A stretch of 62,381 nucleotides of DNA, counting the filler, from Nitrospirae bacterium MYbin3 (GTDB lineage Bacteria > Nitrospirota > Thermodesulfovibrionia > Thermodesulfovibrionales > Dissulfurispiraceae), in the NCBI GenBank assembly GCA_002753335.1. It is 3 parts of 3 records of this genome, joined end to end, with 100 filler letters (N's around TTAATTAATTAA, not from the genome) between each part and the next. Parts side by side here need not be neighbours in the genome. Positions count along the whole stretch, not along the records: positions 1 to 24,225 come from PEAD01000035.1; 2 more parts are not named here. One strand, given 5' to 3'. The position numbers are program-made. Below are positions 12,001-24,000 of this stretch, piece by piece. The stretch's first letter is position 1, and each line of letters begins with the position of its first letter.

Positions 12001-15000
12001 ATTCCAAGCAGGCAATCCATTTGCTGCCAGCAGCGCACCTGTAAACGCAAACGGCAAAGCAAATACCGAGTGTGAAAACTTAATCATTCCGAGATAAAGA
12101 GAGAACTTATTAAAAAGAGACTGCATGATGGTTGTTTTTATTTTCTTAAACTGAAGCGTCCTTTCAGCTTATCAGCATCAGGGCTTATACTCGGACTCTG
12201 TTTTACATTCAGAGCTTTTGCTTCGTTTTCTACTAAAGGTTTTATCTGCTCATAAATCTCTGCTATGGTCTTTTTGCCATCCTTTAGAGCTTTCAGAAAA
12301 TAGTATGTAAAGATGCCATGCCCTTTATCCGGCGCAGACGTGCTTATCTGGGTTCCCTGAGTTGCGGACAATACAGCCATATTACGTGGCATATCCTTGA
12401 TATCAGACAACATAACAAGAGGCCGGGCTCCTTTTGCAAAAACGCTTCTGCCGCCCAACCCAGAAAAGCAGGAATCAATCAAAACAATTATTTCCTGAGA
12501 CTCTAACATGCCCAGTCTTTCATACAGCCTTTTTAACGAATACCCTGTGGTCTCAAGATAGTTGGGATCTCCGTCATATGGCACTATATAAGCTCCGCCT
12601 TTATTTGGCTCCGGTGCGCCGTGGCCCGAAAAATAAACAATCACACGGCTGTCATTCTTGATTTTATTCGGAAGCCAGGCCTCTATTGATTTTTCGATAC
12701 CTGACTTTGTTGCATCCTGATCCGTAATTAATGCAATGTTCTTTTCCTGAAATCCAAGTGCCTTAAGATAGTCTTTAATTATCAGAGCATCATTTTTTGA
12801 ATAGTCCGAACTAGGAAGCCCCTTGTAGGCTTCTATCCCGATTATCACAGCAAGGTCATTGGGTCTGGGCTCAGACTTGAAATCAGGAATTTTATGTATA
12901 TCTATTTCGAATCCAGATGTGTTTTTTGATTGGGGCGTATATGCAGACATATCCCTTACTCTCGCTTTTAAAAACTCCGCCAACTTCATAGATGAACGAA
13001 GCCTGACGCCCAAATTGTCCAAGGCTTCCAATATTAGTTTTTCGGGATTATATCCGGGACGTTCAAGAGCGCCAATACCTAAACCTTTTATCGTATCGAT
13101 TTGTTTATGGTCTAAAGAAAGAATTATCAAAGCAGCATCAATTTGAGCATGAACTTTTTCGGGCATAAGTTCAGTGACATTGTGGATATCAACATTGACA
13201 TATAGATCTGCAATCACAATCATGTCTAATTGCGCCATATTGGCATCCTCTATTTTTTCGAGCCTGACAGCTTTCTTGAAATTGCGGCGGAAAAAATCGG
13301 TAAATAAGGTGTTTATCTTTTCATAATCAAACGAGCCGTATCCTCGCGCATCGTGCAAAAACTGAACTGTTCTTTTTGTGTTTTCCGAAATTACTATGCC
13401 GACTGTCATGTCTTTATAAGCAGGACGCACAATATCCAAGCCAGATAGAGGATCGAGTCGTTCCGGTACGGTCAGAGGGGTTTCGCAGCCCGAAAATAAA
13501 AACAAAAAACTAAACAATATTGATAACTTCACTAATAGAGTTCCCCGAACTTCTTTTCGTCTATCTTTCCTTCGAGAAAGGCCTCAAGTGTTTTTGATTT
13601 CTTTGAAGACTTTATCTCGTCCATAGCCTTTGAGAGCTGTTCCGCGGTAATGTGCCCCTTCTCAAAAACAACCTTAAGCTTATTTCGGGCTATATCCACA
13701 TCCGCGACCTTCGCTCTTTCCCAGTTGCGGGTTACTGCAAAATCTCCATTGCCCGAAATATGAGGGGTCTGCTCAGCTCCCTTAAATTTTCTTGCGGCCT
13801 TAGGCACATTCTCTTTTATGTAGTCCGCAAGCTCATCCACCTTCACCCATACGTCCTTGCCTGCCTTGCCTCTAAGTCCTTCAAGAAAATAGTGGCTGAA
13901 TATCCCTGACTTCAGTTCTGTTTCATCCTCCCAAGACTGCTGATTCGCTGCAGAAGAGGTGAACATCACCTTTCCTGTTCCTGTGGATTTAAAAAGGTCA
14001 GAGGATGCCATCATGCCCACCAAGGGTTTGCCGCCTTTGGGCACTATTGACTTGCCGCCGCCTGTAAAACAGGCATCGAGCGCCACCAATAGCCCTTTAG
14101 CCTGAGACCCGCTCATCAAATCCCGCAAATACGATATTTTTATGCTTGTATCTTCCATTGTTTCTGCGTCTACAATTGCCGCATCATAAGGCACAAGAAA
14201 GCCGTCAAGGATTTTATCGTCCTTTGTCTTAGGTGCGCCGTGCCCTGAAAAATAGACATAGACATAGCCGTCCCAATTCTTGATTTTTCGCAACGCAGAT
14301 ATCATCTCGCTTCTTGTGGCTTTTTCATTGAGAAGCAGTATTGAGTTTTCTTTTGGAACACCGCCATATTGAGGATTGATCAGAACATCATAAACTCTTT
14401 TTGCATCTTGAGAAGCATACTGAAGGTTGGGAATATCCTGCCTGCCCTTGTAGTCTATTCCTACCACTATCGCATAAGTGTCAGAACGCAAAGGCGGTAG
14501 TTCCCCAGAAGCTGCGGGTTCGGTAACGGAAAAAACTTCATAAGTTTGTTTGAATGCTGTTTCGGATTTGCCTTTTTTCTTTGCAATGATTGGAGCTATA
14601 AGCGGATTCTCTTCCATCAATACATCTGCTGATGCAACGGAAAGAGATATATCCTTTTCTATGCCTTCCCTCAATACTCTTATTTTTGCTCTTGTCCCCG
14701 GCATTAATGTAGCTGCTTTATTAAGAAAATCTTTTATGTCTGATACATGAGCGCCATCTAATTTAAGAATTATATCGCCAACCAATATGCCCGCTCTTGC
14801 AGCAGGTCCGCCTTCCACAATTTTTACCGCTTCCACACCTCTTATCATACCTTTGCTGTAGTCTTTTACATGTATTCCAACCATCCCTTTTCCGCCCCTG
14901 TATTCCCAAGCCTTTTCTTTGTCTCCAAGCAGATAATATATGAGTGATAGATTATAGGCTGGATTGTAATCGGCATTCGTTTCTTTTATTTTTATTATTA

Positions 15001-21000: not shown

Positions 21001-24000
21001 CCTTCAGTCTTCTCGCAGCCTTAGGCACATTGTCAGATACGTAGTCCGCAAGTTCATCAGCCTTTACCCATACGTTTTTGCCTGCCTTGCCCCTCATGCC
21101 TTCGAGCAGATAGTGGCTGAATATTCCGCCTTTCAGTTCGCTTTCATCTTCCCATGACTGCTGATTTACCGCAGATGACGTGATAACAAGTCTACCCTCG
21201 CCTTTAGGCTTCATTAAATCGGATGCCACCATCATTCCCACCAAAGGCTTGCCGCCTTTGGGAACTATCGATTTGCCGCCGCCCGAAAAACATGCGTCAA
21301 GAGCAACCATAACGCCTTTTGCATTTGAAGCATCAACAAGCTCTTGCAGATAAGAAACCTTTATGGCGGTTTCTTCCATCGCTTCAGGGTCGGTTACAAC
21401 AACATCGTGAGGCACTAAAAATGCGTCCGTAAATTTATCGCCCTTTGTCTTAGGCGCTCCGTGCCCTGAATAATAGACATACACAAATCCATCCCATGTT
21501 TTGATCCTTCTCAATGCACCGACTATCTCATTTCTTGTGGCCTTCTCATTCAAAAGCAGTACGGCATTTTCCTTTGGTACACCGCCGTACCTTGGGTCTG
21601 TCAGAGTGTCATAAACCTTTTGTGCATCCAACGAAGCGAAGCCCAAAGTAGGTATCTCCTGCCTGCCCTTGTAATCTATGCCTATGACAACAGCGAATGC
21701 ATCGCGGCGTGTCGGCGGAAGCCTATCTGTCTGAACAGGAGCGGGTTCCCTGAAAGCAACTCTTTCTGGAGATTCCTGCTTTCTGGCATATTTCTGCAAT
21801 TCAGGCCATCTGGTAAGGTCTATCGCCCATTCTTTTAAAAGAGTTGCGATAGACACAGACATTCTTCTGCCGAATTCCTGAGTAAATGCGTCCATACCAA
21901 AAACCCGCTGCATATGAAAATCGGACCGTTGAGAATCGCGCGGAGCCCTCCATATTTCCCTCCCCCCTACATCTATGAGCCGCATATTGCCTTTGACAAC
22001 ATAGTATTCGCTTGGAGAAATAGGACAGGAACCTTTTCTGCCGATACTGCTCATGGTTGCCTCAATAACAGCGTCGTAGCCTGCGGGTGGCGGCATGTTT
22101 CTTATAAGCGAAACCTTGTCAAACACCTGAGCAAATGTATCAACAGCCGTTTCTTCAAAAATAACTCCAAAAGGCGTAGGCTCGACATGAACAGATATGC
22201 AGGGCCCTGACAGAACCTCAGAAGTCATAAGACTCCTTGTGGACTCAGGAACAAGCAAGGCCACATTCATCTGTGTTTTCTGCGCAACAGGAATGATAGG
22301 GACTTCCTTTTTTAAAGTCGGACTTATAGAGCAGGCATTAAGAAAAAGAATTGATAAAAAGAAGAATATTTTAATGCCATTGAGACTTTTCATTTATCCT
22401 CCCCCATATGCATCGCGAGCATATATATTTAATATATCAGATTGAGCATCATCTTACCAAACCGAAAGAAAAACAAAAATTGAAATAAAAGCCGGTCTGA
22501 TGATATATTTAAAAATCAAGCTGATTTAGTCATTCCCTAATGTTTTGCCGGAGGTTTTATAATGTATGAGTTAAGCATAGAAACGAGTTTTGCGTCGGCA
22601 CATCAGCTGAGAGGTTACAAGGGCAAGTGTGAAAATATTCATGGCCACAACTGGCGGGTTCAGTTATCAGTAACAGCCGCCAAATTAAACGAGATTGACA
22701 TAGCCATAGATTTTCATGACTTAAAGCGAATGGCGAACGAAGTTGTAGAACAGCTTGACCATAAAATGCTTAACGAAATTTTTCCTTTCACCGAAATTAA
22801 TCCTTCCTCAGAGAATATAGCAAAATGGATATTTGAATCGATGGGCAAAAAACTGCCTGCCAATAGTGTAAAGATGTCTAGCGTGACGGTCTGGGAATCG
22901 GACACCGCATCAGCAACCTACTACGAAGATTAAATATTCCTCAGTGCAAAACAGAGCCAAATCAGACCCACATTTTTCGCTCAAACTTATAGATGCCGCT
23001 ATTTTGCGCGGCGCTGAGGAGGCCGAGGTTTTTCTCAAACAAACAGAAAGTATAAGCATAGAAGCAAAAGGGGGCAAAGCAGAAACTATAGAGTCATCAA
23101 ATACATTCGGGTATTGTCTCAGAATAATAAAAAAACAAAGACTCGGATTCTCATATTCTACGGATGCGGCTGATTTTGAAAAGGTTGCGTTTAATGCTGT
23201 TTCAGCATCTGAGTATACAGAGCAAGATGGCAATCTTGGATTCCCGTTACCCTCAGACATTTCTTCCGTAAATATTTACGATGAACATATAGAAAAGATG
23301 GATAAAGAAACTGCCATTCAACACGCCCTTGCGCTTGAACACCATGCGATGGCCGAAGATAGCAGGATAAAGAAACTCCGCAAACCTTCGGTTACTTTCA
23401 CAGTAAGCAGCACGCATATAGCCAATTCAAAAGGTATTAATGAATCTTACTCAGCCACAGGCTGTTACGCCCAACTTATGGCGATCGCCGAAGAGAGCGG
23501 GTTAAGCCAGATGGGATGGGAATATGAAGGCAGCAGATTCCTAAGCGAAATATCCTGCGAGCGGGTTGCAAAAAAAGCTGCCCAAAGGGCCCTGCAGCTG
23601 CTCGGCGCAGAAAAAACAACATCCTTTAAAGGCAGTGTGTTGCTTGATAATTCTGTGGCCTGCGACTTTTTAGGAATACTCTCATCTGCTCTCTCGGCAG
23701 AGTCTGTGCAAAAAAAGAAATCGCTCTTTGCAGACAAAATTGGCATGAAGGTTCTGAACCACAACCTCAGCATCATTGACAGCGGCCTGATTGATGGAAA
23801 GCTTGGCAGCAAACCGTTTGATGATGAAGGCGTTGCTGTTAAACTCAAATCGCCGGTCGAAAACGGTATATTAAAGTCTTTCATGCACAATACCTATACC
23901 GCTAAGAAATCCGGAGCATTATCTACAGGCAATGCAATACGAGGAAGCTTTCGCGGCATGCCTTATGTTGGGCCTACAAATCTTTATCTCGAACCCATTT

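What a model noticed while it worked through the whole genome (the two positions that open the first line are those of the whole stretch)
12138..22393. Lipoprotein caspase array
Six tandem genes encode caspase-family proteases with lipoprotein signal peptides and intact His-Cys dyads; four share a 73-76% identical C-terminal protease cassette behind unrelated N-terminal ankyrin, TPR, PDZ or unknown domains. They likely form a modular envelope surveillance system in which swappable periplasmic sensors trigger one protease module. A shuffled array of membrane-anchored periplasmic caspases is undescribed.
Evidence so far: g01699-g01704; the genome has 14 Peptidase_C14 genes, the 12 whole ones starting with signal-like peptides and keeping GHG and D-x-C motifs. 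Alignment shows the constant cassette with a C-terminal helical tail and divergent N-termini. Multi-gene arrays of the same cassette in G081, G050 and G020; 9 of 68 family genomes match. Paper search 89 empty; search 93 lists general surveys.
(Added by a program. Inside this text positions count along the whole contig: they may not be those of the stretch shown here. "Call 12" and the like, gene names such as g00115 and contig names such as C1 are that model's own, and its searches are not shown. The text may have been shortened before it was handed on; [...] marks where a part breaks off. The agent that wrote the report below was given it as the finding of a first reader that could run no searches.)

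Follow-up and report, generated by a model that had tools for sequence, protein, structure and literature searches.

The report
Recombining array of envelope caspases
Six neighbouring genes encode caspase-type proteases with predicted membrane anchors outside the cytoplasm; in relatives such genes swap front ends by recombining in the shared protease part, and they likely act through one conserved exported partner protein, an untested many-inputs, one-output envelope system.

Summary
Observation confirmed: six tandem, tightly packed Peptidase_C14 genes, each with a lipobox and an intact His-Cys dyad. Four share a 318-aa cassette (72-79% identical, with a helical tail); two are a second, tail-less subtype. 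The fold is closest to MALT1 and plant metacaspases, with an acidic pocket predicting Arg/Lys cleavage. The shuffling is real but evolutionary, not programmed: relatives carry chimeric cassettes (p<0.001), conversion tracts, and gene gain and loss, while all modules are under purifying selection. 'Surveillance' is unproven: no trigger, substrate or signalling output was found. 'Undescribed' is overstated: a 2012 survey tabulated a three-caspase operon with an exported neighbour, constant-caspase/variable-sensor systems and a periplasmic caspase-like sensor (DdvA) are published, and this scan noted the caspase-DUF4384 pair 17 times on other DNA. I found no paper on the recombining arrays or their function. 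New variant of a known kind; interest 0.58.

The parts
20753..22393 (-). Gene F (546 aa): lipobox Cys21; N-terminal domain 37-201 with an LptE/PqiC/PelC/CsgG-like lipoprotein fold; tail-type caspase cassette (H311, C368; D256, D366, E415); helical tail
   Evidence: pLDDT 87.6; 2iqi Z 14.3, rmsd 3.3, 163 aligned; MALT1 3v4o Z 21.9, rmsd 3.6, 217 aligned
18813..20717 (-). Gene E (probable start 20717; ORF runs to 20753): lipobox, unknown domain of about 165 aa, HtrA-type PDZ, tail-type cassette (H411, C468 counted from 20753)
17233..18798 (-). Gene D (521 aa): lipobox Cys21, unknown domain of about 115 aa (weak PH-like lead only), charged linker, tail-type cassette (H286, C343)
15915..17219 (-). 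Gene C (probable start 17219; ORF runs to 17261): lipobox, three ankyrin repeats, tail-less caspase subtype (H282, C333 counted from 17261); recently exchanged between lineages (dS 0.17)
13532..15886 (-). Gene B (784 aa): lipobox Cys20, ankyrin, TPR, PDZ, tail-type cassette (H549, C606)
12138..13532 (-). Gene A (464 aa): lipobox Cys16, N-terminal domain resembling stand-alone LptE/YajG-like lipoproteins (lead), tail-less caspase subtype (H304, C355); absent from this position in two relatives; GTG overlaps the stop of B
20753..21709 (-). Shared 957-nt cassette, copy in F (other copies 18813-19769, 17233-18189, 13532-14488); 70-76% nucleotide identity, synonymous sites near saturation
18813..18923 (-). 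Last 111 nt of the cassette, copy in E (other copies 20753-20863, 17233-17343, 13532-13642): 81-91% identical among the four array copies, 68-71% to the unlinked fifth copy on contig C27
11266..12126 (-). Flank, not part of the system: MqnP/UbiA-like prenyltransferase, start of a housekeeping run
22562..22933 (+). Flank, not part of the system: divergent 6-pyruvoyl tetrahydropterin synthase family (QueD-like) gene

Best explanation
The six genes are an accordion array of caspase-fold proteases, predicted to be lipid-anchored outside the cytoplasm and to cut after Arg/Lys, whose varied front domains likely bind different envelope ligands, switch on the shared protease by clustering it, and pass the event to one conserved exported partner. 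Shown: gene structure, intact dyads, caspase fold, recombination within the cassette in relatives, gene gain and loss, purifying selection, and the genomic link to a single-copy LPP20-like/DUF4384 gene in other genomes. Inferred: lipidation and outer-membrane sorting; Arg/Lys specificity (D256, D366, E415 sit where MALT1 has D365, D462, E500, by position in the fold); activation by dimerisation as in MALT1, helped by the helical tail or by ring-forming front domains; self-cleavage at conserved Lys/Arg in the loop after the catalytic Cys; the partner as substrate or adaptor. New front-end/protease pairs arise when ordinary homologous recombination crosses over inside the conserved cassette; no dedicated recombinase is needed. 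Trigger and final output are unknown.
For: Fold and pocket; D256, D366, E415 present in 120 of 120 close homologues, His and Cys in 117 of 120; MALT1 pocket and dimer activation from PMC4357240 (passages). Export: 83 of 120 homologues lipobox-type, 21 more with a hydrophobic N-terminus, 16 neither. Shuffling: 52 of 291 pairs with cassettes >=85% identical have no N-terminal BLAST hit (some of these N-termini are only 28-37 aa); L002:9413-10966 is B-like for 268 nt, then F-like (max chi2 53-61, 0 of 2000 shuffles); L011:13123-14487 is A-like then C-like (chi2 31-39, 0 of 2000); a 215-nt identical tract joins adjacent paralogues in L005. Accordion: gene A cleanly absent in a relative in run X1 and in L002; arrays of 2-6 genes in L002, L045-L049. 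Partner: 27 of 301 phylum genomes, single copy in 26 of 27; within 1.5 kb of a caspase on the same strand in 20 of 27, directly downstream in 17; 62-77% identical across phyla. DUF4384 is one C-terminal type of Csx30, the substrate of the caspase-like Csx29, and is often fused to proteases (bioRxiv 2022.08.17.504292, one passage).
Against: The partner gene is not at this array (G000:C61:37621-38442), and 18 genomes with caspase matches lack a match to it at E<=1e-40, including arrays L045 and L046. No signalling output gene was seen near any mapped array. All modules have dN/dS of 0.02-0.38, so no residue-level arms race shows in this pairwise test. The four cassettes in the window are old duplicates (pS 0.67-0.78), not a fast switch. 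The tail-less subtype has Ser/Thr (Asp in 2 of 14) at the E415 position, so the two subtypes may differ in specificity. Three of 120 homologues have lost both catalytic residues yet keep the cassette, so some function needs no catalysis. The tail does not reach the SHOCT cut-off.
Confidence: 0.45

Rival explanations
1. Housekeeping envelope processing or quality control: the front domains only localise a constitutively active Arg/Lys protease to different envelope proteins, as PDZ domains do for HtrA and CtpA; nothing is signalled.
For: HtrA-type PDZ in B and E; a natural CtpA(S41)-PDZ-caspase fusion (L011:8609-10966); purifying selection on all modules; neighbours in relatives are envelope scaffolds and enzymes (CsgG-like, FlgT_N, SLH, transglutaminase-like); no output gene.
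Against: Patchy presence (14 of 68 family genomes), frameshifted copies (L018, L034), toxin-antitoxin-like genes between members (named from sequence by eye) and insertion into unrelated housekeeping operons are unlike core quality-control proteases.
Confidence: 0.27
2. Direct defence: the enzymes destroy foreign proteins that reach the envelope (phage ejection or tail proteins, toxins of competitors, predator enzymes); each front domain captures a class of invader and cutting it is the whole output.
For: Explains the lack of an output gene; ankyrin, TPR, WD40, HEAT, lectin and Ig front ends are typical binding modules; accordion behaviour and recent exchange of gene C (dS 0.17 against 0.8-1.6 for most other genes); periplasmic DdvA TPR-CHAT is tied to phage defence (PMC11506125, passages).
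Against: No dN/dS above 1; PADLOC gives only a partial caspase match; it does not explain a single-copy, highly conserved partner.
Confidence: 0.18
3. Nutrient scavenging, like gingipains, or a largely redundant gene expansion kept by dosage.
For: Same clan and predicted specificity as gingipains (Z about 10); surface anchoring.
Against: Strong purifying selection on each separate front domain; no peptide transporters beside the arrays in the mapped loci; hosts are largely chemolithotrophs or syntrophs (recalled).
Confidence: 0.1

Closest known systems
Prokaryotic metacaspases/orthocaspases with accessory domains (Peptidase C14B; survey PMC3501461, incl. the Desulfococcus oleovorans three-caspase operon)
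   Same: C14 domain with His-Cys dyad; 46 surveyed proteins have an N-terminal helix that may be a signal peptide; Nitrospirae are the richest named phylum (1.11 per 1000 proteins); the supplement lists two ankyrin-caspases, a third caspase and an exported DUF400 neighbour in one operon.
   Different: The survey's maximum is three per operon, here six; it reports no lipoprotein anchoring, no cassette recombination, no tail and no partner role. Whether the D. oleovorans genes are this subfamily was not tested by sequence.
MALT1 paracaspase (C14B(P))
   Same: Top or tied-top structural match (Z 21.9 and 20.7); acidic residues at the three S1 positions in the tail-type cassette; the strand order of the model shows no type I metacaspase insertion, so a caspase-like dimer face is possible.
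   Different: Bacterial, exported, 18-20% identical; no death or Ig domains; dimer and activity untested; plant type II metacaspases score within 1-1.5 Z.
EACC1/EACC2 constant-caspase systems (PMC8195603)
   Same: A constant caspase module joined to highly variable domains, PDZ among them, proposed to act by sensor-triggered autoproteolysis.
   Different: There the caspase is N-terminal and intracellular, with ECF sigma, TRADD-N or TPR partners; here it is C-terminal and exported and scores 65-98 bits against a 140-bit cut-off for the EACC1-type model.
DdvA-DdvS of Myxococcus xanthus (PMC11506125)
   Same: A caspase-fold domain with binding repeats working in the periplasm, proposed to sense a signal and self-cleave; fold match Z 12.0.
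   Different: DdvA is a CHAT-family, membrane-spanning anti-sigma factor with a cytoplasmic output; these are C14-family lipoproteins with no cytoplasmic part and no sigma factor nearby.
Csx29-Csx30 (type III-E CRISPR protease and substrate)
   Same: A caspase-like protease paired with a protein that can carry DUF4384.
   Different: Cytoplasmic, RNA-triggered, CHAT family; here the DUF4384 protein is exported and its cleavage is untested.

Membership tests
Peptidase C14 (clan CD) | Caspase/haemoglobinase fold | tested here: met
   Pfam PF00656 over cut-off for 6 of 6; Z 21.9 and 22.1 for the models of F and A
Peptidase C14 (clan CD) | His-Cys dyad after strands 3 and 4 | tested here: met
   6 of 6 in the window; 117 of 120 homologues
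C14A true caspases | Basic S1 pocket (Arg, Gln, Arg) for Asp at P1 | tested here: not met
   Asp, Asp, Glu at the matching positions in 120 of 120; reference positions from PMC4357240
C14B paracaspase (MALT1-like) | Three acidic S1 residues on helix 1, L4 and L5 | tested here: inconclusive
   Met by position for B, D, E, F (D256, D366, E415); third residue missing in A and C; mapped by motif and secondary structure, not by superposed coordinates
C14B paracaspase (MALT1-like) | Activation by dimerisation, calcium-independent | not testable with these tools
C14B metacaspase / orthocaspase | Arg/Lys cleavage with calcium and/or self-processing | not testable with these tools
   Conserved K374 (119 of 120), K379, K382 in the loop after the Cys are candidate self-cleavage sites; no assay
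Lipoprotein (SPase II substrate) | Hydrophobic signal ending in a lipobox Cys | tested here: met
   6 of 6 by pattern; Cys21 at least 90% conserved in alignment A1; lipidation itself untested
EACC1/EACC2 caspase systems | EACC-type caspase with N-terminal constant module and intracellular location | tested here: not met
   NF047832 below cut-off for 6 of 6; caspase is C-terminal behind an export signal
DdvA-type anti-sigma | Cytoplasmic anti-sigma domain, membrane helix, CHAT domain, cognate ECF sigma gene | tested here: not met
   Only signal peptide plus C14 architecture; no sigma gene flanks the array
Programmed shuffling (shufflon, integron, DGR) | Adjacent recombinase or reverse transcriptase and short dedicated repeats | tested here: not met
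   Repeats in 11000-22700 are the coding cassettes themselves; flanks are housekeeping genes
SHOCT domain (tail) | PF09851 over cut-off | tested here: inconclusive
   Best E 0.033 in the window; 3 of 18 distant members match, best E 0.0074; not among the 25 commonest families in 66 close members

The most novel reading that the evidence does not exclude
A periplasmic inflammasome-like platform: ring-forming outer-membrane lipoprotein folds (LptE/PqiC/PelC-type front domains of the caspases, the FlgP/LPP20-type half of the partner, and the CsgG/FlgO/FlgT-like neighbours in relatives) build a scaffold on which a recombining repertoire of receptor-caspases is clustered and switched on by phage or predator contact, all converging on cleavage of one DUF4384 adaptor: an adaptable innate receptor array working wholly outside the cytoplasm.
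Probability: 0.15. Interest if true: 0.88.

Novelty: new variant of a known kind. Interest (0 to 1): 0.58.

Why it matters
Nearly all studied bacterial caspase-like proteases act in the cytoplasm in death or defence. This family appears to work in the envelope, is multi-copy across Nitrospirota (41 of 301 sampled genomes match) and occurs in Syntrophales, Nitrospinota and Deferribacterales, and builds its repertoire by recombination in a conserved catalytic cassette, the reverse of polymorphic toxins (constant carrier, variable enzyme). The one-partner, many-proteases pattern gives a first named substrate candidate and so makes the old question of what exported bacterial metacaspases do directly testable. 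It also offers a bacterial MALT1-like enzyme for studying how dimer-activated caspases arose.

Tried and rejected
Assembly artefact: rejected; copies are only 70-76% alike in DNA, and contigs of an independent run, X1, show E-F-queD, C-B-ubiA and D in the same order, breaking only in the tails (no single contig spans the array). Recent duplication: rejected, synonymous sites near saturation. Programmed switch: no recombinase or short sites. Diversifying selection: none by pairwise dN/dS against one relative, a weak test. Mosaic test among the window's own copies: 30 triplets run, the strongest all involve the unlinked C27 copy and reflect tail similarity; no clear chimera among B, D, E, F alone (best p 0.012, uncorrected). 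Phage or plasmid carriage: one distant viral hit, 5 distant plasmid hits. Solved sequence relatives: none close. EACC1 search: nothing rang, controls included, so uninformative. SHOCT: below cut-off. Model of A's front domain failed (pLDDT under 50); a search for shorter stand-alone relatives found none. D's front domain: leads under the bar only. Promoter/terminator scan at chance level, 20 against 22.5 expected. Partner cleavage motif (lead from e1-2404327): a fully conserved Lys/Arg-Gly in the partner's linker (PEK/G, 70 of 70) resembles the caspase loop (PK/G), but 24 positions are at least 90% Lys/Arg, so inconclusive. Careful tree did not finish; the quick tree (two truncated rows left out) is illustrative only. 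No RNA holder listed. Paper searches that found no description of these arrays or of the partner.
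Full report
Observation. Six minus-strand ORFs fill 12138-22393, transcribed F, E, D, C, B, A, with gaps of a few bases or overlaps, between a QueD-like gene and an MqnP/UbiA-like gene. All six pass the Peptidase_C14 cut-off, keep SGHG and D-x-C and have a lipobox; none has Asp at +2, which by the E. coli rule (recalled) points to the outer membrane. B, D, E, F share their last 318 residues at 72-79%. A and C are a tail-less subtype. Pfam finds ankyrin, TPR and PDZ in B, ankyrin in C, PDZ in E. The unknown front domains of A, D, E, F are unrelated by profile comparison. 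GC content matches the flanks. The genome has 14 such ORFs by my profile, 12 whole, all with signal-like starts, among them a fifth tail-type gene on contig C27. Close homologues are labelled Nitrospirae, Deltaproteobacteria, Syntrophales and Deferribacterales.

The enzyme. The model of F is confident (pLDDT 87.6). Its caspase domain matches MALT1 (Z 21.9), plant metacaspases 4 and 9 (21.3, 21.2; tied) and Geobacter GSU0716 (19.8); its front domain matches LptE/PqiC/PelC/CsgG-type lipoproteins (best Z 14.3). A's front domain gives the same lead in the Atlas, with stand-alone lipoproteins of 188-205 aa at 0.91-0.92. D256, D366 and E415 are present in 120 of 120 close homologues, His and Cys in 117. 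MALT1 uses D365, D462, E500 for Arg and is activated by dimerisation (PMC4357240, passages). I map the residues by motif and secondary structure, so Arg/Lys specificity is inferred. The tail-less subtype mostly lacks the third acid. The 62-residue tail is four short helices and occurs in 31 of 133 more distant representatives, behind WD40, Ig-like, PEGA, HEAT, CARDB or PDZ front ends up to 2650 aa. It looks SHOCT-like by eye (motif recalled) but does not reach the cut-off.

Is it shuffled? Yes, over evolutionary time. In the window the four cassettes are old duplicates: pS 0.67-0.78, pN 0.12-0.17. Among homologues, 52 of 291 pairs with cassettes at least 85% identical have no N-terminal BLAST hit, and 93 more have front ends under 50% identical (pairs are not independent). 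A gene in a same-genus genome (L002:9413-10966) is B-like for its first 268 cassette bases and F-like after (0 of 2000 shuffles). L011:13123-14487 is A-like, then C-like (0 of 2000). Adjacent paralogues share identical tracts of 215 nt (L005) and 104 nt (L008). In the window, tail codons for the same residue are identical in 130 of 195 cases among array copies, against 567 of 1183 in the body and 57 of 112 against the unlinked copy (sums): moderate evidence of conversion. The same-genus genome splits the orthologues over two loci with other members; a relative at about 90% identity in run X1 has the same order but lacks A cleanly. Gene C has dS 0.17 against 0.8-1.6 for most other genes, a sign of recent exchange. 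Front domains have dN/dS 0.03-0.38, cassettes 0.02-0.09 (two segments were saturated and gave no ratio). So repertoire changes by gene content and crossover, not by hypervariable residues, and no recombinase is at hand.

The missing part. In relatives the arrays sit beside an exported protein of about 270 aa: an N-terminal half resembling LPP20/FlgP/FlgT_N lipoproteins (PDB 9hmf_C, E 0.0027; the FlgP name is recalled; one homologue has a FlgT_N hit) and DUF4384. It was found in 27 of 301 phylum genomes, once in 26 of them; 24 of the 27 have a caspase match, 20 within 1.5 kb on the same strand, 17 directly upstream (from coordinates; kin are not independent). Among fetched loci it is next to a caspase on 13 of 28 distinct contigs by my count. 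In this genome it lies on another contig next to a transposase-like gene. Against its necessity: 18 genomes with caspase matches lack it at E<=1e-40. In three genera of the family the array lies inside a larger island of exported proteins: CsgG-like, FlgT_N, SLH, GNA1162-like-TPR and transglutaminase-like genes behind a Crp-type regulator; this genome holds those genes dispersed.

Mechanism. Most likely (0.45): each front domain binds an envelope ligand or scaffold, clustering the shared MALT1-like domain, which then self-processes and acts on or through the single partner. Structure, dyads, recombination and linkage are shown; export, specificity, dimer switch and partner role are inferred; trigger and output are unknown. 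Because the proteins have no cytoplasmic part and no sigma factor lies near, 'surveillance' in the sense of gene regulation has no support. Rivals: constitutive envelope processing (0.27), direct destruction of invader proteins (0.18), nutrition or redundancy (0.10).

What is known. PMC3501461 (passages, section 13, supplement rows) notes signal-peptide-like helices in 46 metacaspases, at most three per operon, Nitrospirae as the richest named phylum, and lists a D. oleovorans operon of three caspases with an exported DUF400 neighbour (DUF400 as LPP20-like is recalled). PMC8195603 (passages) describes constant-caspase, variable-domain systems. PMC11506125 (passages) describes periplasmic DdvA. 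bioRxiv 2022.08.17.504292 (one passage; supplements closed, and its figures S13-S14 may say more on DUF4384) links DUF4384 to Csx30. PMC7475262, PMC8283722 and PMC6426788 (passages) cover cyanobacterial orthocaspases. Eight searches found no account of lipoprotein caspase arrays, their recombination or the partner; the library lacks most subscription journals. This scan has noted the exported caspase-DUF4384 pair in 17 findings in at least 16 genomes and a similar TPR-CHAT array; these are unchecked notes, not support.

Verdict. Real, larger than any operon in the 2012 survey, demonstrably recombining, functionally uncharacterised. A new variant of a known kind; interest 0.58.

Noticed in passing
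G000:C27:32580-38376 (orthologue L007:5164-10963): The fifth tail-type caspase (TPR-PDZ) ends an operon with an sCache-HAMP adenylate/guanylate cyclase, a LysM-polysaccharide deacetylase lipoprotein and a TPR protein; islands in relatives start with a Crp-type regulator, hinting at cyclic-nucleotide control.
   Followed up: partly
P0077, P0078, P0111: A small clade keeps the whole cassette and tail but has Tyr and Gly in place of the catalytic His and Cys: exported pseudo-caspases.
   Followed up: partly
L011:8609-10966: Fusion of a CtpA-type S41 protease, PDZ and the tail-type caspase cassette in one exported protein.
   Followed up: no
P0247, P0249, P0250, P0253, P0341: Giant exported proteins (2000-2650 aa) of WD40 or Ig-like repeats end in the same caspase-plus-tail cassette.
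   Followed up: partly
L003:2322-19536, L011, L017, L034: Conserved island of exported proteins with CsgG/FlgO, FlgT_N, SLH, GNA1162-like-TPR and transglutaminase-like genes around the caspase array; dispersed over contigs C11, C21, C26, C34, C55, C57, C61 in this genome.
   Followed up: partly
L002:12797-13198, L034:11088-17071, L045:10224-10619, L047:9429-12335: Small PIN-like and nucleotidyltransferase/HEPN-like genes (named by eye) sit between array members in many relatives, often between two caspase genes.
   Followed up: no
G000:C63:23378-25019: Near another exported caspase lie a reverse-transcriptase-like ORF, an Avd-like small ORF and a short frame resembling a variable-repeat target: possibly a diversity-generating retroelement (judged by eye).
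   Followed up: no
window 2460-4415: ChaN/Tiki-like haem-uptake domain fused to a C-terminal PDZ.
   Followed up: no
window 8055-8561: 168-aa membrane protein with no Pfam or NCBIfam match, conserved in L002 at 64%.
   Followed up: no
window 24226-24325 and 47940-48039: The window is stitched from several contigs; only 1-24225 is contig C39. A large serine recombinase at 45868-47517 lies on another piece and is not linked to the array.
   Followed up: yes
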